Source: Candidatus Omnitrophota bacterium
GTDB lineage: Bacteria; Omnitrophota; Gorgyraeia; Duberdicusellales; 4484-171
DNA length: 64,000 bases
Reading direction: 5' to 3'
NCBI GenBank assembly: GCA_041652815.1
Contig: JBAZGN010000004.1
Coordinates: forward strand, 79,890 to 143,889
Every line of letters starts with the position of its first letter. Positions within the stretch are counted from its first letter, which is position 1. Position numbers and translations under genes: made by a program. Under the pieces are notes generated by a model. The model ran no database searches. It was not told where the DNA came from and was given only the letters and a program-made list of their open reading frames with translations. Positions 6,480 to 31,422 of the stretch are shown here, one piece after another.

Positions 6480-6600
6480 TTAACCGGTTACGCATCTCGT
6501 ATCGGTTGCGTTACTCGTTGATCGTTTTTTGAGACGTAACCGATAAACGGTAAACGAAACAAGCCGCGCAAACGCAACCGTAAAACGTAGCCATAAGCCT
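6480..6600. repeat. Word-palindrome element (GGTTGCG / CGCAACC and CGTAAAACG words around a T6 centre)
   Basis: Imperfect inverted repeat in the folK-panC spacer: ggttgcgtt ... aacgcaacc; the same word family occurs at 17562-17700. Confidence 0.6.
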
Positions 6601-7455
6601 ATGTTAATAGCAAAAACTATCAAACAAGCAAAAAAAGCAATCAGCGAAGCAAAACTAAAGAATAGAACCATTGGTTTTGTGCCGACAATGGGCGCTTTAC
6701 ATTATGGCCATCTTTCTCTGGTAAGAGCAGCAAGAAAGAGCTGCGATTTTGTTGCTGTAAGCATTTTTGTTAACCCGGCACAATTTGGGCCGAAGGAAGA
6801 TTTTAGAAAATATCCAAGGGCGTTTATCCGGGATGAACGGCTATTACAAAAGGAGAAGGTTGATTTAATTTTTTATCCTTCTGTTGCCGAAATGTACCCA
6901 AAAGATTTTTCTACCTATGTTGAAGAAATATATTTAAGTAAGCCGCTTTGTGGGTTAATACGCCCGGGCCATTTCAGGGGAGTTTGTACGGTTGTGGCAA
7001 AGTTATTTAATATAATAGAGCCGGACACCGCCTATTTTGGCCAGAAAGATTATCAGCAGGCGTGTATTATAAAGCGTATGGTAAAAGATTTAAATTTCCC
7101 CGTCACTGTAAAAGTGGTTTCTACGGTGCGCGAGAAAGACGGTTTGGCAATGAGCTCGAGGAATGCATATTTGAATTGTCAGGAGAGAAAGGATGCTTTG
7201 GTTTTATTTGAATCAATAGAGCTTGCAAAGAAACTTGTAAGAGGCGGCGGAAAAAACCCAAAGAAAATAATCGCTAAGATGCGCAAGCTTATACTTTCCA
7301 AAAAAAGCGCCAAGATAGACTATATCGAAATAGTTGATGCGCAAAGCCTGCAGAAAGTTGACAAAATGCAAAAAAATGTGTTAATCGCTATTGCTGTATA
7401 TATCGGTAAAACAAGATTGATTGACAACGTAATCGTGCATCTTAAAGGGAGTTAA
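6601..7455 (+). CDS. panC: Pantoate--beta-alanine ligase
   Basis: 284 aa; PTMGALHYGH HIGH-like motif typical of PanC. Confidence 0.9.
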   Translation: MLIAKTIKQAKKAISEAKLKNRTIGFVPTMGALHYGHLSLVRAARKSCDFVAVSIFVNPAQFGPKEDFRKYPRAFIRDERLLQKEKVDLIFYPSVAEMYPKDFSTYVEEIYLSKPLCGLIRPGHFRGVCTVVAKLFNIIEPDTAYFGQKDYQQACIIKRMVKDLNFPVTVKVVSTVREKDGLAMSSRNAYLNCQERKDALVLFESIELAKKLVRGGGKNPKKIIAKMRKLILSKKSAKIDYIEIVDAQSLQKVDKMQKNVLIAIAVYIGKTRLIDNVIVHLKGS

Positions 7456-7470
7456 AACCAAGGAGGTTTT

Positions 7471-8292
7471 ATGCAGAGGAATAAGAATAAAACAAAAATA
7501 GGAATAGTTGGTTGCGGCGCGATAGGAGAAGGTGTTGCAACTTTTATAGATAAGCAATTGCGCGGTAAAGCGGTGTTATGCGCTATTGCCGATAAAGACA
7601 GCGAAAAGGCCGAATTTCTGATTGAAAAGCTTTCGGTTGTTCCAAGACTAAGCAGTATTCATGAATTGGTTAAATCTGTAGACCTGGTAATTGAAGCGGC
7701 ATCAGTTGAAGCAGCCGGTATTGTGCTTAACGAAGCTATAAAATTTAAAAAAGATGTTGTAATCTTAAGCGTAGGTGCATTTATCAATGATAAAACCATA
7801 ATAAAAAGATGCGAAGAGCAGGGGATTAATATTTATGTCCCGTCTGGCGCGATATGCGGGGTAGACGGCTTAGGTTCATTAAGCCTTGGAGAGATAAAGA
7901 AGATTTCCCTCACAACCTCAAAACCGCCCCGTGGGCTTCAGGGGGTTGATTATCTAAAAAAGAACAATATAAACCTCGATAATCTAAAAACGGCGAAAAT
8001 TGTATTTAAAGGAAGAGTGAAAGAGGCGATAAAATATTTTCCGCAGAATATAAATGTTGCAGCAATTTTGCTTTTAGCCTCCTCATTTAAAGACGTGGAA
8101 GTTATGATAAAAGCTGATCCGCAAGTAAAACGCAATATACATCGTATAGAAATAGATACCGAAGAAGCCAAGATAAATATATCTGTTGAGAATGTTCCTT
8201 CTAAGGCAAACCCTAAAACAAGCACTCTGGCGATTCTTTCCACCCAGTATCTGCTGAAGAAGATTTTTTCTTCTTTTAAAATAGGTAGTTGA
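7471..8292 (+). CDS. nadX: L-aspartate dehydrogenase-like (NadX family)
   Basis: 273 aa; GIVGCGAIG Rossmann; PSGAICGVDGL, PQNINVAA, ADP...RNIHRIEI, ENVPSKANPKTS resemble Thermotoga-type aspartate dehydrogenase. Confidence 0.65.
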   Translation: MQRNKNKTKIGIVGCGAIGEGVATFIDKQLRGKAVLCAIADKDSEKAEFLIEKLSVVPRLSSIHELVKSVDLVIEAASVEAAGIVLNEAIKFKKDVVILSVGAFINDKTIIKRCEEQGINIYVPSGAICGVDGLGSLSLGEIKKISLTTSKPPRGLQGVDYLKKNNINLDNLKTAKIVFKGRVKEAIKYFPQNINVAAILLLASSFKDVEVMIKADPQVKRNIHRIEIDTEEAKINISVENVPSKANPKTSTLAILSTQYLLKKIFSSFKIGS

Positions 8293-8545
8293 TTGTATAA
8301 TACACAGATTAGCGCAGATTTGAATGGATGAGCACAGATTTTTAAATCACAATATACAAACCACAAATCACAAACAATATACAATAAACAATTCCGAAAT
8401 CACAAAGGGATTTAAAATTTTGGTCATTGTGATTTTGGAATTGTGATTTGTTTGTAATTTGTAAATTGTGGTTTGTAATTTTCAATAACATCTGCGATCA
8501 TCTGTGATTTCCAATCTGTGATCATCTGTGTAATAATATATAAAA
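8293..8545. repeat. Nested word-palindrome (outer CACAGAT/ATCTGTG words, inner AATCACAA/TTGTGATT words)
   Basis: About 250-bp intergenic region: left half has 3x (c)acagat and 5x aatcacaa-like words, right half has their reverse complements; centre gggatttaaaatttt. Confidence 0.65.
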
Positions 8546-11356
8546 ATGAATGACTATATCATAATAAAGGGTGCCAAAGAGCACAACTTAAAGAATATAG
8601 ATTTAAAAATTCCAAAGAATAAGCTTGTCTGTATAACCGGTTTATCCGGCTCCGGTAAATCTTCTTTGGCGTTTGATACGATTTACGCCGAAGGCCAACG
8701 CCGCTACGTTGAAAGCCTTTCAAGCTACGCCCGTCAATTTTTAGAGCAATTGCATAAACCTGAGGTTGAACATATTGAAGGTTTATCTCCTGCTATTGCC
8801 ATTGAGCAAAGAACCGCAGGAGGTTCGCCTCGCTCAATTGTTGCTACGCAAACAGAAGTGTATGATTACTTAAGGCTTCTTTTTGCGCGTATTGGTAAGC
8901 CTCATTGCTATAAATGCGGAAAACCAATCAGCAAGCAAACTTCCCAGGAAATCATCGAAAAAATATTAGCTGTACCTTCAGGTAACAAGATATACATTCT
9001 TTCGCCGGTAATTCGTGGCAAAAAAGGCGAGTATTCAGCTTTATTTAGCAGGCTTATCAAAGAAGGGTTTTCTCGTGTACGTATTGACGGTAGTATCTAT
9101 GAGCTATCGGAAGAAATAAGATTAGCAAAATATAAAATTCATAATATAGAAATTGTTGTCGACAGGATACAGATTTCTTCTAATTATGCAAAAAGAATAG
9201 GCGATTCTGTAGAAACTGCTCTTAAACACTCAAATGGGTTGGTTATTGTGTATGATGAAACTCAGAATAAAGAATTTCTTTATAATTCGCAAATGAGTTG
9301 TTCAACCTGCGGTATTTCCATAGGTGAACTTGAACCAAGGATGTTCAGTTTTAATTCTCCTGACGGGGCTTGTCCTGCTTGTCGTGGTCTCGGGACTAAA
9401 CCTGAATTTGATACTGATTTAATAATACCCGATAAGAAAAAAACCTTAGAAGAAGGAGCTATAGAAGTCTGGCATCATGGAAGCCGCGGTTACGTAATGT
9501 TTCATAAGGCTTTGCTTAGAGAGCTATCTCATGAAGCAAATTTTTCTATGAGTACTCCATTTAAAGATTTACCCAAAGAAACAAGGCGCCTTATTTTGTA
9601 TGGAGCAGATGATGTGTATGTATGGGGAAAGCCTTATGAAGGGGTATTCAAACGGCTTGGAAGAATGTTCAGCAAGACCGAAAGCGCGTACATGAAAGAA
9701 GAGATAGCTAAATATATGTCAAAACTGCCTTGTCCGGAATGTAATGGGGCAAGAATCAGAAAAGAAAGCATAGCGGTGCGTGTAGGAGGAAAGTCTATTT
9801 GGGATATAGTTAAAATGAGCATAGGTGGCTGCCATGATTTTTTTGTCAGCCTTAAGCTAACTTCATACGAGGAAAAAATCGCATATTACATAATAAAAGA
9901 AATAAAAAAACGGTTTAGTTTTTGCATTGACGTGGGGCTTTCTTATCTTTCCCTGGACAGGCTAAGTTCGACACTTTCCGGAGGAGAAGCACAAAGGATA
10001 AGGCTCGCAACACAGGTCGGTTCTTCGCTTTCAGGCGTCATTTATATACTTGATGAACCAACCATAGGCCTGCATTCGCGCGACGATAAAAAACTTATCA
10101 ATACTTTAAAAAACTTAAGAGTTTTAGGAAATACCGTTATTGTTGTTGAGCATGATGAGCAGATGATAGACGCAAGTGACTGGGTAATTGACCTTGGCCC
10201 CGGAGCAGGCATAAATGGCGGCAGCATTGTATATAATGGAGCAAAAAAGGATGTTTTTAAGGCCAACACTCTTACCGCAAAATATTTACGCGGCGAAGAA
10301 AGAATAGAAATTCCAAAACACAGAAGGCCTTATGCCGATAAGCCTTATTTACATATAAAAAAAGCAACCGAACATAATCTTAAAAATATCGACATAAAAA
10401 TACCTCTTGAAGTTTTTGTTTGTGTAACCGGAGTGTCAGGTTCAGGAAAATCAACTTTGGTTGAGGATATATTGTATAAAGTATTGGCCAAAAATTTATA
10501 CGATTCCAGAGAAAAACCAGGAGCGCATAAAAAAATAGAGGGGCTTAATTCTGTCGATAAAGTAATAATTGTTGACCAGTCTCCGATAGGCAGAACTCCG
10601 CGTTCAAACCCGGCAACCTATACCGGGGTATTTACTTACATACGGGATGTTTTTAGCCAGCTTCCAGAAGCAAAACAAAGAGGGTATAAACCATCAAGGT
10701 TTAGCTTTAATGTCACAGGAGGCAGGTGCGAGGCCTGCCAGGGGGATGGAACAAAGAAAATAGAAATGCATTTTTTACCTGATGTGTATGTTCCTTGCGA
10801 AGTATGCGAAGGAAAAAGATTTAATAAGCAAACGCTTGAGATAACTTTTAAAGGAAAAAGCATATACGACTGCCTCATGATGAGTGTTGGCCAGGCCTAT
10901 GAGCTTTTCGAAAATTTTCCTCACATAAGGAATATTCTTAAAACAGTAGAGGATGTAGGATTGGGTTATATTACTTTGGGACAGGCTGCCACCACTCTTT
11001 CCGGCGGCGAAGCCCAAAGGATAAAGCTTGCCTCGCAGCTACGTAAAAAAGCAACAGGTAAAACTATCTATATACTGGATGAGCCCACAACAGGCCTGCA
11101 CTTTGACGATACAAAGAAGCTTTTGTCTGTACTCCATCGGCTTGTAGATAAAAAAAATACTGTTTTAGTTATTGAGCATAACCTCGATGTTATCAAATGC
11201 GCCGACTACATAATAGATTTGGGGCCGGAAGGCGGAGAGGCGGGTGGCTATCTTGTTGCTTGCGGAGCACCTGAAGAAGTTATAAAATATAAGTCTTCGT
11301 ATACGGGTATTTTTTTGAAAGAAAAATTAAAGCTATTGCAACCTAAAAAAATATGA
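8546..11356 (+). CDS. uvrA: Excinuclease ABC subunit A
   Basis: 936 aa; two ABC ATPase modules (GLSGSGKSSL, GVSGSGKSTL), zinc-finger CxxC pairs, LSGGEAQRI signature x2. Confidence 0.95.
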   Translation: MNDYIIIKGAKEHNLKNIDLKIPKNKLVCITGLSGSGKSSLAFDTIYAEGQRRYVESLSSYARQFLEQLHKPEVEHIEGLSPAIAIEQRTAGGSPRSIVATQTEVYDYLRLLFARIGKPHCYKCGKPISKQTSQEIIEKILAVPSGNKIYILSPVIRGKKGEYSALFSRLIKEGFSRVRIDGSIYELSEEIRLAKYKIHNIEIVVDRIQISSNYAKRIGDSVETALKHSNGLVIVYDETQNKEFLYNSQMSCSTCGISIGELEPRMFSFNSPDGACPACRGLGTKPEFDTDLIIPDKKKTLEEGAIEVWHHGSRGYVMFHKALLRELSHEANFSMSTPFKDLPKETRRLILYGADDVYVWGKPYEGVFKRLGRMFSKTESAYMKEEIAKYMSKLPCPECNGARIRKESIAVRVGGKSIWDIVKMSIGGCHDFFVSLKLTSYEEKIAYYIIKEIKKRFSFCIDVGLSYLSLDRLSSTLSGGEAQRIRLATQVGSSLSGVIYILDEPTIGLHSRDDKKLINTLKNLRVLGNTVIVVEHDEQMIDASDWVIDLGPGAGINGGSIVYNGAKKDVFKANTLTAKYLRGEERIEIPKHRRPYADKPYLHIKKATEHNLKNIDIKIPLEVFVCVTGVSGSGKSTLVEDILYKVLAKNLYDSREKPGAHKKIEGLNSVDKVIIVDQSPIGRTPRSNPATYTGVFTYIRDVFSQLPEAKQRGYKPSRFSFNVTGGRCEACQGDGTKKIEMHFLPDVYVPCEVCEGKRFNKQTLEITFKGKSIYDCLMMSVGQAYELFENFPHIRNILKTVEDVGLGYITLGQAATTLSGGEAQRIKLASQLRKKATGKTIYILDEPTTGLHFDDTKKLLSVLHRLVDKKNTVLVIEHNLDVIKCADYIIDLGPEGGEAGGYLVACGAPEEVIKYKSSYTGIFLKEKLKLLQPKKI

Positions 11357-13806: not shown

Positions 13807-13905
13807 TAGAAGCGGATTACCGCGGATTAAAACGCGGATTGCCGAAAGCTGAGTTAGCGTGCGTAAATCCGCGTAAATATCCGCGGTAATCCGCTTCTAC
13901 AAAAA
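13807..13905. repeat. Word-palindrome (3x GCGGATT / 3x AATCCGC), probable terminator hairpin
   Basis: tagaagcggattaccgcggatt...aatccgcggtaatccgcttcta; the outer 22 nt are perfectly inverted. Confidence 0.7.
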
Positions 13906-14931: not shown

Positions 14932-14934
14932 TTT

Positions 14935-15105
14935 AATATAATAGTAACGCCTATGAGACTAAATAACCAAGATACAAGAAACAATAACCAAACAATAAAC
15001 AATATTCAAATTCCAATAACCAAACATTTCTGTTTGGTTATTGGTGATTGAGATTTGAATATTGTTTGTGTCTTGTCTCTTGGTTATTGGTTATTTTAAT
15101 CATGC
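14935..15105. repeat. Word-palindrome (AATAACCAA words / TTGGTTATT words)
   Basis: 5 direct copies of (a)ataacca then their reverse complements in the exbD-lgt spacer. Confidence 0.6.
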
Positions 15106-15905: not shown

Positions 15906-17516
15906 ATGAGTATGTTAAAAGTTGCATTAGCTCAAATAAATCCTTGCGTTGGAGATTTGGATTATAATGCGAATAAAATCATTTCTAATATCAAGAGGGC
16001 AAAGAAAGCAAAGGCAGATATCGTTATATTTCCGGAATTGTCCCTTACGGGTTATCCACCGGAGGACCTTTTACTTAAGCCGCATTTCATTGATGAAAAT
16101 CTGCGCTATTTGAAGATTATTGAGAAAGAGTCAAAAGGCATAATAGTGCTTTTAGGATTTGTAGATAAATGCAACGATAGGATATATAATTCCTGCGCTT
16201 TTTTAAAAGATGGTAAGTTAAAAGATGTTTACCGGAAAATTTATCTTCCGAATTATGGAGTTTTTGATGAAAAACGATATTTTGTGCCCGGAAATCTTCT
16301 GTCCTTCTATGCATTTAAGGGGTATAAATTCTGTGTTAGCATATGCGAGGACATATGGAGAAAAGGTTTTGTAAACAACTTGGCCAGTAAAAAACTCGAT
16401 TTTATCATTAATATATCTGCTTCTCCGTTTCATCTCGGGAAAATCTCCATGCGGGAAGAAATTATTTCAAATCTTGCTAAACAAACCAATGCTTTTGTGT
16501 TTTACGCTGATTTAGTAGGAGGCCAGGACGAGCTTGTGTTTGATGGCACCAGTATGGTAGTTTCTCCTTCTGGCAAGATAGCTGCGGTTGCGAACAGGTT
16601 TAAGGAAGATTTTCTGCTTTTTGAATTGGGTAACAATAAAAAGTATCCCGTAAAGAAGATATCCATAAAGCAAGAAGACGAGGCGTTTTCTGCACTTAGG
16701 CTTGGTTTATGCGATTATGTGCATAAAAATAGTTTCAAGCGGGTTATAATCGGTGTAAGCGGAGGAATTGATTCTGCTGTTGTTGCGGCTCTCGCGGCGT
16801 CTGCTCTTGGAAAAGATAATGTCTGTGCGCTTATTATGCCTTCACGCTATACATCCAAAGCAACTTTTACGGATGCGAAAATCTTATGCGAAAATCTAGG
16901 TATAGATTATAAAATTATAAATATAAATGAAATGCTTGACGCATATTTAAAAATACTTTGGCCGCTGTTTAAGAAAAAAGATGGCACCAAGACGGAAGAA
17001 AATCTACAGGCAAGAATAAGAGGCAATTTGCTTATGGCTTATTCCAACGAGTTCGGATACCTTGTATTAAATACAGGAAATAAGAGCGAGGTTTCCTGCG
17101 GTTATTGCACTCTTTATGGCGATATGGTGGGCGGGTTTGGGTTGCTGAAAGATATACCGAAAATGCTGGTTTATAAAATCGCACGCTACATTAATCATAT
17201 TTATCCTAAGCCGGCAATCCCGCTTTCGGTTATACGCAGGGCCCCTTCAGCGGAACTTAAGCCCAATCAGAAGGACACGGATAGCTTGCCGCCGTATTCA
17301 TTGCTTGACCCGATTGTAAAATTATATGTCGAAGATGATTTTTCACTTGAAAAAATCGTAAAAAAAGGCTTTAATCAGAAACTGGCCCGTAAGGTAATGA
17401 CAATGATTGACTCAAGTGAGTATAAGCGCAGGCAAGGCCCAATAGGTATAAAAATTACGCCCCGCGCTTTTGGCAAAGACAGGCGTATGCCGATTACCAA
17501 CAAATTTAATTATTGA
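15906..17516 (+). CDS. nadE: Glutamine-dependent NAD+ synthetase
   Basis: 536 aa; N-terminal CN-hydrolase domain plus C-terminal PP-loop SGGIDS NAD synthetase domain. Confidence 0.9.
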   Translation: MSMLKVALAQINPCVGDLDYNANKIISNIKRAKKAKADIVIFPELSLTGYPPEDLLLKPHFIDENLRYLKIIEKESKGIIVLLGFVDKCNDRIYNSCAFLKDGKLKDVYRKIYLPNYGVFDEKRYFVPGNLLSFYAFKGYKFCVSICEDIWRKGFVNNLASKKLDFIINISASPFHLGKISMREEIISNLAKQTNAFVFYADLVGGQDELVFDGTSMVVSPSGKIAAVANRFKEDFLLFELGNNKKYPVKKISIKQEDEAFSALRLGLCDYVHKNSFKRVIIGVSGGIDSAVVAALAASALGKDNVCALIMPSRYTSKATFTDAKILCENLGIDYKIININEMLDAYLKILWPLFKKKDGTKTEENLQARIRGNLLMAYSNEFGYLVLNTGNKSEVSCGYCTLYGDMVGGFGLLKDIPKMLVYKIARYINHIYPKPAIPLSVIRRAPSAELKPNQKDTDSLPPYSLLDPIVKLYVEDDFSLEKIVKKGFNQKLARKVMTMIDSSEYKRRQGPIGIKITPRAFGKDRRMPITNKFNY

Positions 17517-17519
17517 TAA

Positions 17520-19298
<1,779 letters not shown>

Positions 19299-19382
19299 GT
19301 TGTTACAATCTACAGCACAGATATTTGCTCATTGTTAGAAAATATATTCGCGGGGTGGAGCAGACAGGTAGCTCGCAAGGCT

Positions 19383-20044
19383 CGATGGATACAAAACTTA
19401 AAGCTGACATTGCGGAATCAGCCGTAATCACTGAACTTCTTAAAAGAGGTTTTAGGGTGTTACGGCCGTAGGCGATAGGCTTTCCTATGATTTGGGTGTA
19501 GATTTTCAAGGAGAGTTTATCCGTATCCAGGTAAAAAGCGCGTGGTTTAACACAAAGGACAAGTGTTATATCGTTGATGCTCGGCGAACTAAGACTAATC
19601 GCCGGCGTATGTTAAGAGCGCATTACCGCAAGAACGACTTTGATTTCGCAATTGTTTACATCGCTGATTCAAATGTGTTCTACGTTATGCCTATAGCCGC
19701 GTTCTCTGGTTATAAAAGCACCATACATTTGTTGAATCAAAAAAGCGGCAGCGTGGGCCAAAAACAGCGATTTACAGAGAGCGATGGGATTTGTTATCCA
19801 ATGGGTCCCTCAGTCGGTAACGATTGATGGAAAACTTGTCAAATTCGGTGAAACTCTCGATGTTAAGTCAGAGCAATACCGAGCCAAGCCTTGACATTGC
19901 GTCAAGGAAGGTGTAGAGACTAGGTGGCAGGGACCCAACGCTAATTTAAAGTGTAACATAATTAGTGCTGGGTTAAGGTATAGTCCAGACTACAAACTCT
20001 TAACAAGCAGTTGTTAGGGGGCAGTGAAAACTGTAGCAGTAAAG
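19383..20044 (+). ncRNA. Group I intron (IC3-like, Azoarcus/cyanobacterial tRNA-intron type) carrying an ORF
   Basis: Core elements tcaaattcggtgaaact (P3/P4), gagccaagcc, gtgtagagactag (P7 5'), aaggtatagtccaga (P7 3'); omega G before the 3' exon. Confidence 0.8.
19385..19827 (+). pseudogene. Intron-encoded PD-(D/E)XK (Hjc/YraN-like, I-Ssp6803I-type) homing endonuclease, -1 frameshifted
   Basis: Frame 1 MDTKLKADIAESAVITELLKRGFRVLRP* stops at 19469-71; it continues in ORF 19492..19827 frame (GDRLSYDLGVDFQGEFIRIQVKSAW...), giving an E...D...(I/V)xVK nuclease motif. Confidence 0.55.
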
Positions 20045-20224
20045 CATAACCTTGAGGTCACAGGTTCAAATCCTGTCCCCGCAATGTCTTCTTTTTTACA
20101 TCATTTTCAAGCCAACGACACCATTCTTTTAACAATAGTAATATTTGGATGTAATAGTGCCTTCGGCACACTCCGCCTTCGGCGGAGATTACATACAAAT
20201 CCTGTCCCCGCAATGTCTTAAATT

Positions 20225-24868: not shown

Positions 24869-24937
24869 TTAGACGTTACGAAGATTTTCTGTTCTTTTAA
24901 TAATTAATTTCAGTAATTTTTTAGCTATAAGCTGTTT

Positions 24938-25011
24938 GCGCCCGTAGATCAATTGGATAGATCGTCTGGCTACGGACCAGAAGGTTGCAGGTTCAACTCC
25001 TGCCGGGCGCG
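24938..25011 (+). tRNA. tRNA-Arg(ACG)
   Basis: gcgcccg acceptor, anticodon stem tctgg/ccaga, loop ctACGga, T-arm gcaggttcaactcctgc. Confidence 0.85.
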
Positions 25012-25140
25012 TTTACTATGAAAGGTTACGAAAGTTACGTAGGTTACGCAGGTTACGAAGGTTACACTAAACCCCGATGTTTTATTGTAACCTTCGTAAC
25101 TTCCGTAACATTCGTAACCTTCGTAACAATATACTGAGGA
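25012..25140. repeat. Word-palindrome (4x GGTTACG / 5x CGTAACC variants)
   Basis: gaaaggttacgaaagttacgtaggttacgcaggttacgaaggttac ... gtaaccttcgtaacttccgtaacattcgtaaccttcgtaac. Confidence 0.7.
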
Positions 25141-25147
25141 GGATACC

Positions 25148-25621: not shown

Positions 25622-25645
25622 CTGCTTATTCTAATTGGAGGTAAC

Positions 25646-25972
25646 ATGGTTATAGCCGTATTAGTTGCTATTCCGGAAAAAGATGCAGAATCGCTTGCGA
25701 AGATGCTTTTGGGAGAGCGTGTATGCGCTTGTGTAAACATAGTCAATGGAGTCAAATCGTTATTTTGGTGGAAGGGTAAGCTTGACGAAGCCAACGAGTC
25801 ATTGCTTATTATCAAGACAAAAGAAGCATTATTTGCTAAACTAAAAATGCTTATTAAAAATAATCATCCCTACGAAGTTCCTGAAATAATAAGTTTTAAA
25901 ATAGACAATATAAACCAGGAATATCTTGACTGGTTGAACAAAGAGGCGAATGCTTTACCATTTTCTTCATAA
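25646..25972 (+). CDS. cutA: Divalent-cation tolerance protein CutA
   Basis: 108 aa; CutA1 fold motifs (C.C ... HPYEVPEI). Confidence 0.8.
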   Translation: MVIAVLVAIPEKDAESLAKMLLGERVCACVNIVNGVKSLFWWKGKLDEANESLLIIKTKEALFAKLKMLIKNNHPYEVPEIISFKIDNINQEYLDWLNKEANALPFSS

Positions 25973-26657: not shown

Positions 26658-26669
26658 AAAAAGGCCAAT

Positions 26670-27119
26670 ATGAAAAAAATAATAGCACTGTTTATCTTTT
26701 TTTCTTCAATGACAGGCGCGGTTGCTTTAGATGAGGCATTTGGCACACTTAGTGGAGCCCGTATATCTTATGAACAGAATATCGCGCAAGGCGACACAAT
26801 GCTTTTTATTTGGACAAGCCGGTGCCCTTATTGTATAAGTGAGCTTAGGGAAATGAACAAAAATGAAGATCTTTGTAAATATTTTAAATGTTTTTTCGTA
26901 AACGTTGGCGAAGGAGAATCAAGCGTTAAAGAGGTGGTTAATTCGCTAAAGCTTAAAAGCCACATTTCACAAAATATCATTATGGATAAGTCTGCCAGCC
27001 TTGCGGGTAAGTTTTCTATCGTAGGCGTGCCGACTTTTATCTTCATGCGTGACGGAAAAGTTTTAAATCGTTCCTATCATTTTGACGAGACTGCTGTAAA
27101 ACAAATTTTTAAAAAATGA
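26670..27119 (+). CDS. TlpA/ResA-like periplasmic thioredoxin
   Basis: Signal peptide; W.SRCPYC CxxC motif; follows ccdA. Confidence 0.75.
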   Translation: MKKIIALFIFFSSMTGAVALDEAFGTLSGARISYEQNIAQGDTMLFIWTSRCPYCISELREMNKNEDLCKYFKCFFVNVGEGESSVKEVVNSLKLKSHISQNIIMDKSASLAGKFSIVGVPTFIFMRDGKVLNRSYHFDETAVKQIFKK

Positions 27120-27324
27120 AAGAACAGGGAACCAAGCACAGAGGACACATAATAAAAAAAGAAAACCTTTTGTGTTTTCTGTGATTAAGTTTTGACAGAA
27201 CGACGGTATTTTACCCCTTGCGTCTGTATATCGGTTAAATTTCACGGCCTGCGGCCAGGAAATTTAACCGAGACGCTTCGGGGTTAATTTTCCCGACGAA
27301 CGTCGGGAAAATTAAGGAGGCTAA

Positions 27325-28110
27325 ATGTCTAAATGCTATTTGGTTTCGTTTTTTATTAGTTTAATCATATTTCCAGGTAAGGTTTTTTCTCAAGGAACGC
27401 AAAATTATGATAAACGCGATCCCGTTATCGTTGAATACAGCGATAGAATAAAAATAAGCCCTAACCTTGAGCAAGCATATTATAAGCGTGCAAACGAGGA
27501 GTTAGATGCAGGAGATTACGAGCTGGCTATCTACGATTATACACGGGCACTGGAAATAAATCCTAACGATGCAGAGATTTACAACAATCGGGGTATAGCT
27601 TACAGCAAAAAAACACAATACGATGAAGCAATTGCCGACTACGTAAAGGCTCTGGAAGTAAATCCGCAGTCCGCAGAAAGCTATTATAATAGAGGCATTG
27701 CTTACAGCAAAAAAGGAAATTATTCGAAAGCAGTTGAGGATTATACAAGAGCCATAAAAATCATGCCTGATAACGCCGAAATTTATTACGCCAGGGCAAG
27801 GGCTAATGATGCAATCGGTAAGCGCCGGCAGGCAGTTAGCGATTATAATTCAACCAACAATTTAGATTCCCGGTTGGCGCAAGCTTATTACCATAGAGCG
27901 CTTGCCTATAGTGAGAAAAGAGACTATGAGAAAGCAATAGAAGATTATTCAAAGGCAATCGAGGCTAATCCTAAGTATGCAGATGCATATATACGAAGAG
28001 GCCTTGCGTATGGGCAAAAACAAAAATACCGTAAGTGCTGGGAGGATGTAAAAAGAGCTTTTGAATTGGGAGTTGTAACCGAGGAAGAGAATTTAAACAT
28101 TAATCAATGA
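27325..28110 (+). CDS. Secreted TPR-repeat protein
   Basis: 261 aa; repeated AxxYxxRAxAYxxxGxYxxAIxDYxxAIE units. Confidence 0.7.
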   Translation: MSKCYLVSFFISLIIFPGKVFSQGTQNYDKRDPVIVEYSDRIKISPNLEQAYYKRANEELDAGDYELAIYDYTRALEINPNDAEIYNNRGIAYSKKTQYDEAIADYVKALEVNPQSAESYYNRGIAYSKKGNYSKAVEDYTRAIKIMPDNAEIYYARARANDAIGKRRQAVSDYNSTNNLDSRLAQAYYHRALAYSEKRDYEKAIEDYSKAIEANPKYADAYIRRGLAYGQKQKYRKCWEDVKRAFELGVVTEEENLNINQ

Positions 28111-28583
28111 AGAAAAAAGATTTTGATATTTTACCGGTAGCTGAACGTAGGCGTTTTATACGGCACCCCTTAAGTATCCCTATTAGCTATAAAATTCTCA
28201 AAAAGACGCGAGACATTAACGAAAAGGGTGTACCGGCAGTGACAGCTAATGTAAGCATGGGGGGGTTATTGTTTTCGACGAAACGCCCGGTTAAGGTGGG
28301 CGCTTTGATTGAAATAAAATTACCATTTAAAGATAAGATATTTAATGTTAAATCAAAAGTTGTGCATTGTGCTAAAAGCTCCGAAGCAAAAGTTTATAAT
28401 GTCGGTAGTAGTTTTTATCGCTTTAGTGATGCTTTTAAAACCAAGTTGATTGAGCAAATTTATCTAATTGCTGAATACCGCGATTTACGCAGTATTCAGT
28501 TGGGCAGAGAAATTTCTCTTGAAGAGGCATCTCGTGAATGGATAGAGCGCTATGCTGAACGTTTTAAGAGGCTCTACTGGTAA
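28107..28583 (+). CDS. PilZ domain protein
   Basis: RRRFIRHP and NVSMGGLLF motifs. Confidence 0.65.
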   Translation: MKKKDFDILPVAERRRFIRHPLSIPISYKILKKTRDINEKGVPAVTANVSMGGLLFSTKRPVKVGALIEIKLPFKDKIFNVKSKVVHCAKSSEAKVYNVGSSFYRFSDAFKTKLIEQIYLIAEYRDLRSIQLGREISLEEASREWIERYAERFKRLYW

Positions 28584-28715
28584 ACCCCGTTAGAGAATTT
28601 CGTTCTCTAACGGTATTGCTCGACGGTGGCTTTAAACCACCGTCTTCGCCTAGATAATTACCACCGATTTTATCGGTGGCTTTCTCTAACGGGGTAAAAG
28701 TTTGAGTTATTATGT

Positions 28716-28991
28716 ATGCATAAAAAACTGGCAATTGCTATTTTATTAAGCATATTTTTCTTTGTTACCTGCCAATTGTTTGCTCAGGATATCCCTCAAG
28801 AAATACAGAATCTCGGGTTTACGCAAAACCTGCTTATAAGTTATGATAGAGAAGGCAGTGAGGAGTTTTTTACCTTTTCAGAATTAACCGCTATCCAGGT
28901 GGGAGAAACTATAACATTTATAGTTGAGAATGGGAAGGTAAAACAAAGGATTAAGGGGCAAATCGCAAAGTTTTTGGAAAAGAGCTCATAG
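28716..28991 (+). CDS. Small secreted protein
   Basis: 91 aa; signal peptide. Confidence 0.4.
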   Translation: MHKKLAIAILLSIFFFVTCQLFAQDIPQEIQNLGFTQNLLISYDREGSEEFFTFSELTAIQVGETITFIVENGKVKQRIKGQIAKFLEKSS

Positions 28992-29223
28992 CGATACGAT
29001 ATATAAAATTTCTGATGAATCTACGAAAATAAGCCTGGAGAATTTCCTTCCTGTGCGTTGATTAACCTTTTTTATAGTAGATTTTTTTATCCTTGAATGA
29101 TATAATTTTGAAACACAGATGATTGCAGATGGCAGACACAGATGATCACAGATGTTTGAAAGGTAGAAAATAGAAGGATAAACAATAAATTTCTATTAAT
29201 TTCCTAATTTCTGCCAATTTCTA

Positions 29224-29275
29224 TTGTCCGCCACCGATGACTTTTTATATGTGGGCGGATCCGCCTCTGGCGGAA
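29224..29275. repeat. ~50-nt MITE-like hairpin element (CCGCCAC..GTGGGCGGATCCGCCTCTGGCGGAA)
   Basis: Near-identical copy at 34903-34953 and a diverged copy at 35107-35150; internal palindrome ggcggatccgcc. Confidence 0.65.
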
Positions 29276-29389
29276 AATTGATAGAAATTTGCTTCGCGAA
29301 ATTTATAGAAGTTAGTTGTTTGCTAAAAACTCTTTATTCTTAATATCTGCGATCATCCGCTTCAAAATCTGTGCTAATCTGTGTATATC

Positions 29390-29462
29390 GGGCCATTAGC
29401 TCAGTTGGTAGAGCAGGACACTCTTAATGTCAAGGTCGTAGGTTCAAGTCCTACATGGCCCA
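29390..29462 (+). tRNA. tRNA-Lys(CUU)
   Basis: gggccat acceptor, D-arm tagctcagttggtagagc, loop ctCTTaa, T-arm gtaggttcaagtcctac. Confidence 0.8.
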
Positions 29463-29519
29463 TGTCTTCTTACGCAGATGATCACAGATGAAAGATACAG
29501 ATAATCACAGATATTCTTT

Positions 29520-29954
29520 GTGTTCTATATGAAAAAGTATGAGATTCTCGAACACACCGCAGATATACGAGCCAGAATTTTCTCGAAAACGCAGGAAGAT
29601 TTGTTTGTTAATTCAGCTATTTGTCTTTTTGAACTTTTAACCGATAAAAAGCTTAAAGCCGACAAGATAAAAAGTGTTGAGCTGGAAGCATCTAAATTAG
29701 AGGATTTGCTTATTCTTTGGCTCAATGAATTGATTTCCATTTTTTATGCCGATAAATTTTTTCCGGTTGAATATAAAATATCCATCAAAGAATTTTCCGG
29801 CACGAAAAAGCTTTTTGCTGAGATAAAAGGGCAAGATTTTAATCCCTACGACAGTAAAAGCATAAAGTCAGAAATTAAAGCTGCTACCTACCACAACCTA
29901 AAAATAGAAGAAGATAGAAACGGTTTCATAGCGGAAATTATATTTGACGTGTAA
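29520..29954 (+). CDS. Archease
   Basis: YEILEHTADIRARIFSKT is the archease N-terminal signature; about 140 aa. Confidence 0.8.
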   Translation: MFYMKKYEILEHTADIRARIFSKTQEDLFVNSAICLFELLTDKKLKADKIKSVELEASKLEDLLILWLNELISIFYADKFFPVEYKISIKEFSGTKKLFAEIKGQDFNPYDSKSIKSEIKAATYHNLKIEEDRNGFIAEIIFDV

Positions 29955-29963
29955 GCGAAGGGG

Positions 29964-31370
29964 GTGCGTATGAAGAATCTGGTGATTTTTGTTTTTGGTT
30001 TTCTTTTTTGTTTTTCTGTGTGCGCGCAGGAGAATGTAGAACTTACGGTTTACAACCAGAATTTTGCTTTAGTAAAGGACCAACGCAGCCTAGATTTAAA
30101 AAAAGGATTGAATAAAGTAGACTTCAAAGACGTAGCCTCCCTTATTGAGCCGACTTCGGTTCATTTTGTTTCTTTAACCGCCCCTGATTCGTGTTCTATT
30201 CTGGAACAGAATTACGAATATGATTTGATGAGTTCCGAAAAGCTTCTTTCCAAATATATCGATAAAAACATAAAAATCATAACTAAAGATGCAAAGACAT
30301 ACGAAGGAGTACTTTCGAGCTTTGATGCTAACAATATTATAATTTCCGGTCAGGATGGTTTAAGCATGATTGTCCGGCCTGATAATATAGCTCAGATAAG
30401 TTTCGATAAAACTCCGGAAGGGCTTATTACAAAGCCAACGCTTGTCTGGGAAATTGAAAATGGCAAAGAAGGAAAACACTTAACTGAAGTATCGTATCTT
30501 ACCGGCGGCGTAAACTGGCTCGCCGAATATGTAACCGTTTTGGATAGGGATGATAAAAAAGTGAGCCTCGATGGTTGGGTAAGTATAACTAACAATAGCG
30601 GCGTAGGTTATAAAAATGCAAAACTAAAACTCATTGCCGGAGATGTAAAACGAGTGCAGCCACAAGCAGGCGCAGTTATTTACAATAAAATGGCTCTCAG
30701 GGAAAAGGACGAGGCTATGCCGCAATTTCAGGAAAAAGCATTTTTTGAGTATCATATGTATACTTTGCAAAGAAAGGCAACCCTCAAGAATAATCAGATA
30801 AAGCAAATCTCTCTGCTTTCCGCAAACAACATACCCGTAAAAAAGGTTTTTATATATGACCCGGTAGATTATTACGGTTGGAATTGGTATCGCTATGATA
30901 ATAACCAAACTACAAAAGAACAAAAAATAAAAGTGAAAATTGAGCTTACCAACAGTAAGCAAAATAATTTGGGAATGCCTTTACCGAAAGGAAAAGTAAA
31001 AGTTTATAAAAAAGACGATGATGGCAGTTTACAATTTATAGGGGAAGATCAGATTGACCATACCCCTAAAGATGAAACTATAAAATTATATTTGGGGGAT
31101 GCTTTTGATGTGGTTGGAGAGCGAAAGAAAATGAACTACCGGACTGGTAATGATTGGGCAGAGGAAAGCTTTGAAATAACTTTACGTAACCATAAAGAGA
31201 GCGATATTGAAGTTAATGTTATTGAACATATGTGGCGTTATTCAAACTGGAAAATAATCAACAAATCTCACGAGTTTACCAAGAAAGACGCTCAAACCAT
31301 AGAGTTTAAGGTTCCTGTGGTAAAAGATGGAGAGGCAAAAGTAACTTATACGGTCAGGTATTGGTGGTAG
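29964..31370 (+). CDS. Secreted DUF4139-like protein
   Basis: 468 aa; signal peptide; general resemblance to the DUF4139/MuiA family; sits between archease and rtcB. Confidence 0.4.
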   Translation: MRMKNLVIFVFGFLFCFSVCAQENVELTVYNQNFALVKDQRSLDLKKGLNKVDFKDVASLIEPTSVHFVSLTAPDSCSILEQNYEYDLMSSEKLLSKYIDKNIKIITKDAKTYEGVLSSFDANNIIISGQDGLSMIVRPDNIAQISFDKTPEGLITKPTLVWEIENGKEGKHLTEVSYLTGGVNWLAEYVTVLDRDDKKVSLDGWVSITNNSGVGYKNAKLKLIAGDVKRVQPQAGAVIYNKMALREKDEAMPQFQEKAFFEYHMYTLQRKATLKNNQIKQISLLSANNIPVKKVFIYDPVDYYGWNWYRYDNNQTTKEQKIKVKIELTNSKQNNLGMPLPKGKVKVYKKDDDGSLQFIGEDQIDHTPKDETIKLYLGDAFDVVGERKKMNYRTGNDWAEESFEITLRNHKESDIEVNVIEHMWRYSNWKIINKSHEFTKKDAQTIEFKVPVVKDGEAKVTYTVRYWW

Positions 31371-31422
31371 ATACAGAGAACAGATAACAGAGTACAGAGA
31401 ACAGAAGGATAAATGAACTAAA

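What the first reader, a model, noticed from the sequence alone, without database searches (positions are those of the whole stretch)
6480..31410. Intergenic word-palindromes: hairpins built from tandem short words followed by their reverse complements
At least eight spacers carry 100-250-bp imperfect inverted repeats built from a 7-9-nt word repeated 3-5 times and then mirrored. The words are GGTTGCG/CGTAAAACG (6480-6600, 17562-17700), CACAGAT and AATCACAA (8293-8545, 17520-17755, 29090-29170, 29335-29389, 29463-29520), GCGGATT (13807-13905), AATAACCAA (14935-15105), GGTTACG (25012-25140) and ACAGAGAACAGA (31371-31410). CACAGAT words also flank tRNA-Lys on both sides. They could act as terminators, attenuators or protein-binding arrays. 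The word-array-plus-mirror architecture across different words is not a standard REP/BIME/MITE layout that I recognise.
Basis: seen in the sequence. Interest (0 to 1): 0.6.

Follow-up and report, generated by a model that had tools for sequence, protein, structure and literature searches.

The report
Nested foldback word-repeats in Omnitrophota spacers
The short gaps between genes in this uncultured Omnitrophota bacterium hold families of small hairpin-forming repeats, whose arms are short words repeated in tandem and then mirrored; they behave like miniature mobile DNA that nests inside itself, not like terminators or conserved regulatory sites.

Summary
Seven spacers in the stated range, plus one outside it, carry 80-290-nt imperfect palindromes whose arms are 3-5 tandem copies of a 6-9-nt word. 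A strict detector finds 6 against 0.1 in local dinucleotide shuffles. Fold z-scores are -5 to -9, but only -2.2 for the 6473 hairpin. Two listed sites (29463-29520, 31371-31410) are unmirrored solo arrays.

The window is from a Candidatus Omnitrophota MAG. In syntenic congeners the same gene pairs are often 4-25 nt apart or overlap, so these hairpins are lineage-specific insertions. One uvrA-upstream site shows three states: empty, outer hairpin only, and outer hairpin with different inner hairpins at its apex.

The families are dispersed, and arms are 86-91% identical between genomes whose AspDH proteins are 41-66% identical.

None has a terminator U-tract. The + strand shows no G·U excess over A·C (18 vs 21).

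Best reading: non-autonomous foldback/MITE-like repeats that land in hairpin apices. No transposase partner and no clean target-site duplication were found. I rate it a new variant of a known kind, of moderate interest.

The parts
6473..6598 (.). GGTTRCG-family foldback between folK (HPPK) and panC. GGTTGCG/GGTTACG/GGTTGCG, then CGTAACC/CGCAACC/CGTAGCC; irregular spacing.
   Evidence: dG -41, z -2.2. The same spacer is 19-22 nt in L004, L083, L084 and L085. L006 has an independent GGTTACG x5 foldback there.
8303..8339 (.). Left arm of the outer CAGAT-family foldback (CACAGAT, CGCAGAT, degenerate GGATGAG, CACAGAT) in the aspDH-uvrA spacer.
   Evidence: Orthologous outer-only copies in L003 and L083. 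Empty site in L004.
8345..8481 (.). Inner A/C-rich foldback (AATCACAA / AACCACAA / AAACAAT words, then TTGTGATT / TTTGTAA) sitting exactly in the apex of the outer CAGAT hairpin.
   Evidence: (I3, I6). A 36-nt stretch of the right arm is 92% identical in the distant L008.
8490..8530 (.). Right arm of the outer CAGAT-family foldback (ATCTGCG, ATCTGTG x3).
   Evidence: The whole spacer 8293-8545 folds with dG -84.8, z -9.0.
13807..13899 (.). GC-rich CAGAT-family variant (GCGGAT x3, then ATCCGC x3), flanked by TA on both sides, between the TPR/BamD-like gene and exbB.
   Evidence: dG -60, z -9.0. Relatives have 21-283-nt spacers holding other hairpin families or none.
14958..15097 (.). AATAACCAA-family foldback between exbD and lgt.
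   Evidence: (I1); z -9.2. Seven of the eight relatives compared have 10-53-nt spacers here. The closest congener fragment, L087, has a different (CTAAAC/CGAAAT) foldback in the same spacer.
17520..17743 (.). Nested element between nadE and eno. Outer CAGAT arms are 17520-17558 and 17673-17743. Inner GGTTGCG/CGYAACC foldback is 17566-17672. An extra small ATCCT hairpin at 17690-17718 interrupts the right arm.
   Evidence: z -5.3. By tblastn coordinates nadE and eno are 4 nt apart in L083 and L085. The L083 sequence itself shows about 30 nt between the nadE stop and the eno ATG, with conserved flanks.
25020..25130 (.). GGTTACG-family foldback, 5 + 5 words at an exact 9-nt period, directly 3' of tRNA-Arg.
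   Evidence: (I2); z -7.6. Its arm is 89% identical over 45 nt to the L006 element at a different locus. L083 lacks it after tRNA-Arg.
29114..29383 (.). Triple-nested element in the tRNA-Lys 5' leader. Outer CAGAT arms are 29114-29153 and 29345-29383. The middle TAGAAA/TTTCTA hairpin is 29160-29335. The innermost 50-nt TTCCGCC..GGCGGATCCGCC..GGCGGAA element is 29226-29278.
   Evidence: L091 has the same TGATATAAT box and tRNA-Lys but no element.
29473..29512 (+). Solo CAGAT-family arm (4 words, no mirror) between tRNA-Lys and archease. It can pair with the upstream ATCTG arm across the tRNA.
31373..31405 (+). Solo period-7 ACAGA array upstream of rtcB (no mirror, dG 0).
   Evidence: The genes abut in L094, and L093 has a weak related array.
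37275..37345 (.).
   Evidence: (z -5.1). L091 has a solo ATCTGNN x4 array at this site; L094 has a 9-nt spacer.

Best explanation
These are families of small, non-coding, foldback-type repeats that are or recently were mobile. They are MITE-like, with each arm a tandem array of a short word.

Shown:
(a) They are insertions into spacers that are 0-25 nt long in many of the syntenic relatives compared.
(b) They belong to dispersed families. The CAGAT family has a roughly 45-nt arm consensus, A-CRCAGAT-GAT-CACAGAT-TTKGAAA-CRGAT-GAT-CACAGAT. Other families are GGTTRCG and A/C-rich types.
(c) Related arms occur in distantly related Omnitrophota genomes.
(d) New copies sit in the apex of older copies, giving two- and three-deep nests.
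(e) Copy density differs sharply between congeners.

Inferred:
- A trans-acting enzyme recognises the repeated words as multiple binding sites per arm, as in Galileo/FB foldback elements or Tc1 IR/DR ends. Alternatively it recognises the hairpin itself.
- It inserts at AT-rich (possibly TA) sites in permissive spacers, and at the single-stranded tips of extruded palindromes.
- Slippage within the arrays then changes word number and period.
- Once inserted, the element is co-transcribed in operons and leaders as a 40-60-bp imperfect double-stranded RNA stem. By analogy with Correia elements this is a likely RNase III substrate. It does not act as an intrinsic terminator.
For: Enrichment and structure:
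- 6 strict word-palindromes in the window against 0.1 in shuffles.
- z = -5 to -9 for six of the seven mirrored spacers in range, and -2.2 for 6473.

Insertion polymorphism in syntenic congeners:
- folK-panC: 128 nt here, 19-22 nt in L004, L083, L084 and L085, and overlapping genes in L005 and L007.
- exbD-lgt: 194 nt here, 10-53 nt in seven of the eight relatives compared.
- nadE-eno: 224 nt here, 4 nt in L083 and L085 by tblastn coordinates, with conserved flanks.
- dnaX-recR: 90 nt here, 9 nt in L094.
- The JAQTUC genome (L004 + L094, 25 kb) has none.

Graded states at one site, aspDH-uvrA:
- Empty in L004.
- Outer CAGAT hairpin only in L003 and L083.
- Outer hairpin plus an AATCACAA inner in the window.
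- Outer hairpin plus a different TAGAAAT inner in L084.

Family homology goes beyond the words. Thirteen CAGAT arms from four loci in the window and from L083, L084 and L086 align over about 45 nt, including their spacers.

Sharing across lineages:
- The L087 arm and the L043 arm match at about 41 of 45 positions (my count from the alignment). L043's AspDH is about 41% identical to the window's.
- Window 25020 and L006 2363 are 89% identical over 45 nt, at different loci, with AspDH 66% identical.
- CACAGAT words also occur in the L060 spacer.

Apex nesting:
- Four of four inner elements lie between the innermost words of the outer CAGAT hairpin.
- The 50-nt GGCGG element sits in a hairpin apex at 29226.
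- Copies of it also lie in the D-loop and T-loop of a tRNA-Ser copy, and in the T-loop of a tRNA-Met fragment in L086.

Density varies like a burst. The strict detector gives 5 real hits in the window, all between 8 and 30 kb, about 1 per 20 kb in L083-L085, 0 per 25 kb in JAQTUC, and 3 in the 5.9 kb of L006 plus a CAGAT foldback it misses.

Strand symmetry:
- + and - strand MFEs are similar.
- G·T vs A·C is 18 vs 21, as expected for a DNA-level palindrome rather than a sense-RNA element.

Literature:
- Prokaryotic MITEs are under 500 bp, AT-rich, intergenic and form stable stem-loops. Their direct repeats fade with age. Correia transcripts are cut by RNase III (PMC10969869).
- Tandem repeats inside foldback inverted repeats carry extra transposase-binding sites (PMC4079207).
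Against: - No autonomous partner was found. No mirrored word arrays flank an ORF in about 1.3 Mb of Omnitrophota loci.
- The only transposase in the window is a degenerate IS3 with unrelated ends.
- There is no clean target-site duplication. TA precedes 7 of 13 CAGAT arms and flanks 13807 and 8293 on both sides, but the flanks are AT-rich and other copies lack it.
- Copies within the window are only about 75-85% alike, so no recent transposition is documented. No strain-level polymorphism was available, because L001 and L002 are identical to the window.
- Several unrelated words share one architecture in a single genome. One sequence-specific transposase explains this poorly.
- The uvrA and recR upstream sites carry CAGAT-type arrays in several genomes, and uvrA carries two sub-families (period 10 and period 7). 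This could hint at function or at site preference.
Confidence: 0.58

Rival explanations
1. These are cis-acting RNA hairpins selected in place. They would act as unusual terminators or attenuators, as mRNA 3'-end protectors like REP in E. coli operons, or as RNase III processing stems (including a stem enclosing tRNA-Lys). On this view the word structure is incidental.
For: - They lie between co-directional genes or in 5' leaders, and they leave the Shine-Dalgarno region free.
- The stems are very stable.
- The ATCTG array upstream and the CAGAT array downstream of tRNA-Lys can pair across the tRNA.
- Hairpin potential at the uvrA leader is kept in five genomes despite sequence change.
- Correia-type stems are known RNase III substrates (PMC10969869).
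Against: - There is no U-tract, and no + strand terminator hit falls on any element.
- Many close relatives with the same operons lack them.
- There is no G·U over A·C bias on the sense strand (18 vs 21) and no consistent MFE advantage for the + strand.
- Word nucleotides are paired (89%) more than spacer nucleotides (67%). This points to the word, not the helix, as the conserved unit.
- The same families occur at unrelated loci and in unrelated genomes.
Confidence: 0.15
2. These are arrays of binding sites for host DNA-binding proteins, such as operators, nucleoid-associated proteins or partition proteins. Direct arrays in two orientations would bind protein cooperatively or loop the DNA. The CAGAT word might mark a DNA/RNA-repair regulon (uvrA, recR, rtcB-archease).
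For: - Words are better conserved than the spacers between them.
- CAGAT-type arrays lie upstream of uvrA in six genomes and of recR in two. They also lie upstream of archease and rtcB.
- Unrelated phage contigs show the same 3 + 3 direct/inverted layout for GGTGGTTACG words, which I read as iteron-type protein-binding clusters.
- Solo arrays exist (29473, 31373).
Against: - L004, L005 and L007 have no CAGAT motif upstream of uvrA. L094 has none before recR or rtcB.
- The same word family also sits before eno, exbB, tRNA-Lys and tRNA-Met.
- The word period varies between 7 and 10 nt, so helical phasing is not kept.
- At least five unrelated words in one genome would need as many regulators.
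- Nesting would disrupt any operator geometry.
Confidence: 0.12
3. These are locally generated, non-mobile palindromes. Replication slippage makes a tandem word array in an AT-rich spacer. Template switching or hairpin-primed repair then mirrors it. Centre-break repair adds material at the apex.
For: - Solo arrays that could be precursors exist (29473, 31373, 32883).
- Word number and period differ between orthologous copies, for example L085 against L083.
- There are no target-site duplications and no partner transposase.
Against: - Arms are homologous over about 45 nt, including the spacers, between different loci and between genomes with 41-66% AspDH identity.
- The inner elements are themselves members of dispersed families. 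GGTTGCG occurs alone at 6473 and as an inner element at 17566. TAGAAA is an inner element both in the window and in L084.
Confidence: 0.12
4. These are chance products of low-GC, low-complexity intergenic sequence.
For: The spacers are AT-rich (26-48% GC).
Against: - Six observed against 0.1 expected in shuffles that keep local composition.
- z down to -9.
- Families recur across genomes.
Confidence: 0.01

Closest known systems
Prokaryotic MITEs (Correia/NEMIS, ERIC, QMITE, Chunjie, Nezha)
   Same: Under 500 bp, non-coding, AT-rich and intergenic. They form terminal inverted repeats that fold into stable stem-loops, occur as dispersed families, and show presence/absence polymorphism between relatives. 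Degraded or solo copies exist, and they are co-transcribed with neighbouring genes (features as listed in PMC10969869).
   Different: - The arms are 35-60 nt and consist almost wholly of 3-5 tandem words, compared with typical 4-30-nt unique inverted repeats.
- There is almost no unique core.
- No clear target-site duplication and no cognate IS were found.
- They nest systematically at the apex.
Eukaryotic foldback elements (Drosophila FB, Galileo, Tetris; plant and sea-urchin relatives)
   Same: Long inverted arms are built from tandem short repeats, with variable repeat number between copies and little or no middle domain. They are mostly non-autonomous. The tandem repeats are proposed to be extra transposase-binding sites (PMC4079207).
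   Different: - The size is one to two orders of magnitude smaller (about 100-290 nt against kilobases), and the units are 7-10 nt.
- The host is bacterial.
- No MULE, P or THAP-type transposase is known here.
- This is a resemblance of architecture only. Common descent is not implied.
REP / BIME / REPIN elements with RAYT transposases
   Same: Extragenic palindromic repeats in short spacers of operons, at high copy number, forming hairpins. REPINs are inverted doublets. REP sequences are known targets for insertion of other elements (from my own knowledge and the reference list of PMC3116915).
   Different: - REPs are 20-40-nt single palindromes with a conserved GTAG or CGTC tag.
- BIMEs alternate orientation rather than placing an array and then its mirror.
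- No tag is present on the window's elements, and no RAYT gene lies in the window.
Cyanobacterial STRR heptamer arrays and small dispersed repeats (Elhai et al. 2008, Genome Res 18:1484; from my own knowledge, paper not held)
   Same: Tandem 7-nt words in intergenic DNA. Very small (20-50 nt) hairpin repeats insert into one another, into tandem heptamer arrays and into structured RNA genes.
   Different: STRR arrays are not described as obligatory array-plus-mirror palindromes. The phylum and the words are different.
Iteron or operator clusters of phages and plasmids
   Same: Three to five direct copies of a 7-10-nt word, followed by inverted copies. An example is GGTGGTTACG x3 plus inverted copies in IMG/VR contigs.
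   Different: Those clusters are single-copy, flank an AT-rich core next to replication or packaging genes, and are not dispersed families nested in each other.
Rho-independent terminators
   Same: A hairpin downstream of a gene.
   Different: Here the stems are 40-60 bp, imperfect and AT-rich, with no U-tract. Many lie in 5' leaders.

Membership tests
MITE | Short (<500 bp), non-coding, with terminal inverted repeats | tested here: met
   The elements are 80-290 nt. I saw no ORF confined to an element in the sequences read, though this was not tested formally. The arms are complementary.
MITE | Multiple dispersed copies forming sequence families | tested here: met
   The CAGAT family occupies at least 5 loci in the window and also occurs in L003, L083, L084, L086 and L060. 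GGTTRCG occurs at 3 loci here and in L006.
MITE | Flanking target-site duplication | tested here: inconclusive
   TA flanks both ends of the 8303-8530 and 13807-13899 elements, and precedes 7 of 13 CAGAT arms. The flanks are AT-rich, other copies lack it, and filled and empty sites are too diverged for a clean comparison.
MITE | Cognate autonomous IS sharing the terminal repeats | tested here: not met
   No word arrays flank an ORF in about 1.3 Mb of loci. The IS3 remnant at 57774-58930 has unrelated ends. Only a small part of any one genome was searched.
MITE | Insertion (presence/absence) polymorphism between related genomes | tested here: met
Foldback element (architecture) | Inverted arms composed of tandem short repeats, with variable copy number and a minimal middle domain | tested here: met
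   Three to five words per arm. The period is 7 in L085 and 10 in L083 at the same site. Loops are 4-21 nt.
Foldback element (membership) | Mobilised by a MULE, P or other eukaryotic DDE transposase | not testable with these tools
   No partner was identified. The host is bacterial, so membership by descent is not claimed.
REP/REPIN | 20-40-nt palindromic unit with a conserved GTAG or CGTC tag at one end | tested here: not met
   The window elements start with CRCAGAT, GGTTRCG, AATAACC and similar words, with no tag.
REP/REPIN | Associated RAYT (Y1 transposase) gene | tested here: not met
   No Y1_Tnp hit among the roughly 40 window proteins scanned, nor in the Pfam tables for the other genes. 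A few ORFs beyond 58.9 kb were not scanned, and the rest of the genome was not available.
Intrinsic terminator | GC-rich stem followed by a U-tract on the transcribed strand | tested here: not met
   No + strand terminator-like hit overlaps any element. The sequences end in A-rich or mixed tails.
Integron attC | Conserved R''/R' core sites (RYYYAAC ... GTTRRRY), and cassette genes that vary between relatives | tested here: not met
   The flanking genes are syntenic housekeeping genes. GGTTACG does not fit GTTRRRY.
Known RNA family (Rfam) | A match to a curated covariance model | tested here: not met
   Only tRNAs and two group I introns reach the gathering score in the window.

The most novel reading that the evidence does not exclude
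The small palindromic elements of this lineage may be inserted by a structure-directed mechanism that targets the single-stranded apex of hairpins, whatever the sequence. This would explain three things: why unrelated words share one architecture, why every nested copy sits exactly at the apex of its host, and why GGCGG-type insertions (about 50 nt) lie in the D-loop and T-loop, and an unrelated 82-nt insertion in the anticodon loop, of a tRNA-Ser copy, with another GGCGG copy in the T-loop of a tRNA-Met fragment in another genome. If so, this would be a hairpin-loop-specific transposition or integration system not yet described in bacteria. It could act on DNA, or conceivably on RNA; rtcB and archease lie next door.
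Probability: 0.18. Interest if true: 0.75.

Novelty: new variant of a known kind. Interest (0 to 1): 0.5.

Why it matters
- Omnitrophota genomes are compact and known only from metagenomes, and their non-coding DNA has hardly been examined. My literature searches found no description of these repeats.
- Much of the "extra" intergenic DNA of one lineage turns out to be fast-turnover foldback repeats. This gives strain-level markers and warns against reading the hairpins as terminators or riboswitch-like regulators. It also helps explain why such MAGs fragment in assembly.
- The elements are a bacterial counterpart to eukaryotic foldback elements, with arms made of tandem binding-site-like words.
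- The consistent apex nesting, extended by the small GGCGG element to tRNA loops, points to a testable preference for hairpin tips. That could reveal a new insertion mechanism.

Tried and rejected
- Exact-word searches for the window's words in 80 other Omnitrophota loci hit only the nearest relatives. A general detector was needed.
- RNALfold over all loci timed out. It was replaced by a k-mer antidiagonal scan, which is noisy below 32 covered nt.
- Sense-strand RNA selection was rejected: + and - MFEs are similar, and G·T vs A·C is 18 vs 21.
- Terminator function was rejected.
- Search for an autonomous partner found nothing. Mirrored arrays 0.3-6 kb apart and TA-CRCAGAT ends 0.6-4 kb apart gave only chance pairs. 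The IS3 remnant is unrelated.
- Viral-contig scans: the CACAGAT pattern gave 4 chance hits, and the two exact family patterns gave none. The GGTTACG x3 pattern hit unrelated phage iteron clusters.
- Target-site duplications could not be resolved by comparing filled and empty sites.
- A LexA-like operator reading of CAGAT was considered and dropped. The words are in the wrong relative orientation and spacing, and they are absent upstream of uvrA in L004, L005 and L007.
- attC and CRISPR were considered and rejected on layout.
- Two look-ups of the archease protein found nothing on record.
- The Elhai 2008 paper is not held.

Full report
**Source and setting.** The window is about 38% GC, with nearly all genes on the + strand. 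Its aspartate dehydrogenase gene finds its best relatives only in Candidatus Omnitrophota MAGs. These are L003 (JAQVOZ, 90% aa), L004 (JAQTUC, 86%), L005 (67%), L006 (66%) and L007 (57%), then about 75 loci at roughly 40%. Two independent assemblies (L001 from ENA, L002 from JGI) carry the identical 8293-8545 spacer, so the structures are not assembly artefacts.

**Checking the observation.** Reading the listed sites and locating the words by pattern confirms word-plus-mirror hairpins at:
- 6473-6598
- 8303-8530
- 13807-13899
- 14958-15097
- 17520-17743
- 25020-25130
- 29114-29383

The repeat tools recover the arms independently (I1-I14). These spacers fold far better than dinucleotide shuffles, with z = -9.0, -9.0, -9.2, -5.3, -7.6 and -4.1. 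The 6473 hairpin reaches only -2.2.

A strict detector finds 6 regions in the window, against a mean of 0.1 and a maximum of 1 in 100 shuffles that keep local composition. It requires a 6-mer at least 3 times in 60 nt and its reverse complement at least twice within 260 nt.

Two listed sites are not palindromes. 29473-29512 and 31373-31405 are solo tandem arrays, and the 31371 spacer folds with dG 0. One further member lies outside the stated range at 37275-37345.

The words fall into fewer families than listed. CACAGAT, CGCAGAT and (C)GCGGAT differ only by transitions, as do GGTTGCG and GGTTACG.

**Anatomy.** Thirteen CAGAT arms, with right arms reverse-complemented, come from four loci in the window and from L083, L084 and L086. 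They align over about 45 nt to the consensus A-CRCAGAT-GAT-CACAGAT-TTKGAAA-CRGAT-GAT-CACAGAT. The arms are therefore homologous modules, not merely convergent word arrays.

In the minimum-free-energy folds, word nucleotides are paired 89% of the time and inter-word nucleotides 67%. The stems are 6-7-bp helices separated by small internal loops.

Three sites are nests:
- At 8293-8545, an A/C-rich AATCACAA hairpin sits in the apex of a CAGAT hairpin.
- At 17517-17745, a GGTTGCG hairpin does the same, and a further small hairpin interrupts the right arm.
- At 29105-29389 there are three levels: CAGAT outside, TAGAAA/TTTCTA in the middle, and a 50-nt TTCCGCC..GGCGGATCCGCC..GGCGGAA element at the core.

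**Comparison with relatives.** A metagenome scan with the TPR protein gave congeners L083-L090. An RtcB homologue search gave L091-L096, which include further contigs of the JAQVOZ, JAQTUC and Ga0265297 genomes. Gene order is conserved, so spacers can be compared one to one.

| Spacer | Window | Relatives |
|---|---|---|
| folK-panC | 128 nt | 19-22 nt in L004, L083, L084, L085; genes overlap in L005, L007 |
| exbD-lgt | 194 nt | 10-53 nt in seven of the eight relatives compared |
| nadE-eno | 224 nt | 4 nt in L083, L085 by tblastn coordinates, with near-identical flanks |
| TPR-exbB | 110 nt | 21-283 nt, holding other hairpin families or none |
| pilZ-next gene | 132 nt | 17 nt in L091 |
| dnaX-recR | 90 nt | 9 nt in L094 |
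| DUF4139-rtcB | 52 nt | genes abut in L094 |

The nadE-eno figure of 4 nt comes from tblastn coordinates. The L083 sequence itself shows about 30 nt between the nadE stop and the eno ATG.

The aspDH-uvrA site shows graded states:
- Empty (15 nt) in L004.
- Outer CAGAT hairpin only in L003 and L083.
- Outer hairpin plus an AATCACAA inner in the window.
- Outer hairpin plus a different TAGAAAT-word inner in L084.
- A period-7 CAGAT variant in L085 and L006.

At tRNA-Lys, L091 has the same TGATATAAT box about 40 nt upstream of the tRNA and no element. In the window, the 270-nt nest lies between that box and the tRNA 5' end. L086 has a CAGAT foldback 6 nt upstream of tRNA-Met.

The JAQTUC genome has no word-palindrome in 25 kb. 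L083-L085 have about one per 20 kb. In L006 the strict detector finds three in 5.9 kb, and a CAGAT foldback near uvrA makes four. The hairpins are therefore dispensable, lineage-specific gains with burst-like density.

**Spread across the phylum.** The same architecture with other words occurs in other Omnitrophota loci:
- AAATTCCAA in L005
- GTGTAAT and CTAAAC/CGAAAC in L043
- TGACAAA/TCAAAAT in L059
- GTTCTA in L060
- CGAATAAACG in L071
- AGTGATA in L073

The strict detector gives 19 hits in 1.24 Mb, at least 16 of them clear word-palindromes on inspection. The shuffle rate predicts about 2 by extrapolation.

Family members are shared between distant genomes:
- The L087 element is in the exbD-lgt spacer of the closest congener fragment (best TPR segment 91%). 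Its arm matches L043 at about 41 of 45 positions (my count from the alignment), although L043's AspDH is only about 41% identical to the window's.
- The window GGTTACG element at 25020 is 89% identical over 45 nt to an element at a different locus in L006.
- CACAGAT words occur in the folK-panC spacer of L060.

Different families colonise the same spacer in sister lineages. In exbD-lgt the window has AATAACCAA and L087 has CTAAAC. In folK-panC the window has an irregular GGTTGCG element and L006 has a regular GGTTACG one.

**What they are not.**
- No + strand terminator-like site overlaps any element, and none is followed by a T-tract.
- Rfam finds only tRNAs and two group I introns.
- Folding energies of the two strands are similar.
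- In symmetric 1x1 and 2x2 stem mismatches across 27 elements, G·T (18) does not exceed A·C (21) on the sense strand. Selection on a sense-strand RNA hairpin would favour G·U. The symmetry fits a DNA-level palindrome.
- Host-operator readings fail because the sites are absent from relatives, the word period varies between 7 and 10, and nesting would destroy operator geometry.

**Most likely mechanism.**

Shown: insertion into otherwise minimal spacers; family homology; cross-lineage sharing; apex nesting; burst-like density.

Inferred:
- These are non-autonomous foldback/MITE-like elements mobilised in trans.
- The tandem words serve as multiple binding sites per arm, as proposed for Galileo and other foldback elements (PMC4079207). 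Alternatively the hairpin itself is the recognised feature.
- Insertion is biased to AT-rich (possibly TA) sites and to the tips of existing palindromes.
- Slippage within the arrays explains the variation in word number and period, and deletion explains the solo arms.
- Once inserted, the elements are transcribed within operons and leaders as long imperfect double-stranded RNA. By analogy with Correia elements these would be RNase III substrates (PMC10969869).

Weaknesses:
- No partner transposase was found.
- No clean target-site duplication was found.
- Copies are only 75-85% alike, and no strain-level polymorphism was available.
- One sequence-specific enzyme cannot easily serve five unrelated words.

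**Apex targeting.** All four inner elements in CAGAT hairpins lie between the innermost words. With a 6-20-nt apex in a roughly 100-nt element, about 10-20% would be expected by chance per event; this is my estimate, not a computed figure.

The 50-nt GGCGG element is 98% identical at 29226-29278, a hairpin apex, and at 34903-34952. The second site is the D-loop of a duplicated tRNA-Ser gene. That gene carries two more insertions, one exactly in the anticodon loop and one exactly in the T-loop. A related copy sits in the T-loop of a tRNA-Met 3' fragment in L086. Shorter versions lie in-frame in the TPR gene of L083 and L084, and in L042, L048 and L056.

This supports the more novel reading that insertion is directed by structure. 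I give it about 0.18.

**Comparison with known systems.** The closest functional class is the prokaryotic MITE. The closest architecture is the eukaryotic foldback element. REP/BIME/REPIN membership fails on the tag, and no RAYT gene lies in the window. Cyanobacterial STRR and small dispersed repeats share the heptamer arrays and the nesting (from my own knowledge; the paper is not held). Literature searches found no description of such repeats in Omnitrophota.

**Verdict.** This is a real and statistically strong feature. It is best explained as new families of foldback-type miniature repeats in a poorly studied phylum: a new variant of a known kind, of moderate interest. Apex-targeted insertion is an open and more interesting possibility.

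Noticed in passing
window 19348-20085: tRNA-Met(CAU) is split in its anticodon loop by a 661-nt group I intron that carries a PD-(D/E)XK endonuclease ORF (19492-19827). The exon halves at 19348-19383 and 20045-20085 match the intact tRNA-Met that follows eno in L083-L086. A 19-nt duplicate of the tRNA 3' end lies at 20196-20214.
   Followed up: partly
window 38171-38491: tRNA-Asn(GUU) appears to be split by a second group I intron (Rfam hit 38242-38445). The halves are at 38171-38205 and 38468-38491. A large serine recombinase gene (38479-40107, - strand) abuts it. Relatives have an intact tRNA-Asn after recR.
   Followed up: partly
window 34882-35145 (intact copy 35422-35514): A second tRNA-Ser(GCU) copy carries three insertions, placed exactly in the D-loop (52 nt), the anticodon loop (82 nt) and the T-loop (51 nt). 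The D-loop and T-loop inserts are the TTCCGCC..GGCGGATCCGCC..GGCGGAA element. A GIY-YIG gene (35170-35445) lies between the two tRNA copies.
   Followed up: partly
window 29226-29278, 34901-34952, 35084-35134; L086 11230-11280; L083/L084 11057-11080; L042, L048, L056: A small (30-52 nt) GGCGG/CCGCC palindromic element is shared across Omnitrophota genomes. It is found in hairpin apices and tRNA loops. A roughly 30-nt in-frame version (+10 aa) lies in the TPR/BamD-like gene of two congeners, reminiscent of Rickettsia palindromic elements.
   Followed up: partly
window 51195-51420, 51945-52200, 60245-60500: Three near-identical copies of a roughly 250-nt, highly structured non-coding element. 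Each has two perfect 20-nt hairpins and ends in a terminator-like stem. The containing spacers have z = -8.5 to -9.8. No Rfam family matches, even at E <= 1.
   Followed up: partly
window 27120-27324, 28584-28715; L083, L088-L090, L084, L086, L005 spacers: Other hairpin families without word structure also turn over in the same spacers. One is GCACTATYATTTTTTC..GAAAAAATRATGTGCTCATTAAAAAGGAGG, directly abutting the Shine-Dalgarno sequence in five relatives. Another is TTAATTTYC..GRAAATTAAGGAGG, in the window (27283-27315) and in L083 and L089.
   Followed up: partly
window 38479-50745 and 57774-58930: A possible integrated island lies downstream of tRNA-Asn. It holds a serine recombinase, a TIR-domain protein (43947-45269), a tyrosine integrase (48172-48741) and several ORFs with no Pfam hit. 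A degenerate IS3 (orfA/orfB) without recognisable inverted ends lies at 57774-58930.
   Followed up: no
window 29390-32874: tRNA-Lys is followed directly by archease, a DUF4139/LSM-like protein and the RNA ligase RtcB. This genome also has at least two intron-split tRNAs and a multiply interrupted tRNA copy. Relatives have three extra genes between g28716 and archease.
   Followed up: no
L091 6677-6815: In the congener, tRNA-Lys is followed by a roughly 115-nt insert bounded by a 25-nt direct repeat of the tRNA 3' end. This looks like an att-like scar of a very small integrated element.
   Followed up: no
L034 11189-11330, L048 16910-17064, L049 7436-7660 / 11170-11248 / 17264-17453, L055 17186-17338: Another Omnitrophota clade carries a REP-like family with conserved ends, GGGGACGGTTCTNTTTTT..AAAAANAGAACCGTCCCC. 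These enclose variable inner hairpins and nest inside each other.
   Followed up: no
L102-L131 (IMG/VR contigs): Unrelated phage contigs (34-67% GC) carry clusters of GGTGGTTACG or CGGTTACG x3 with inverted copies nearby. These are probably protein-binding iterons. It shows that an array-plus-mirror layout also arises as a binding-site cluster.
   Followed up: partly
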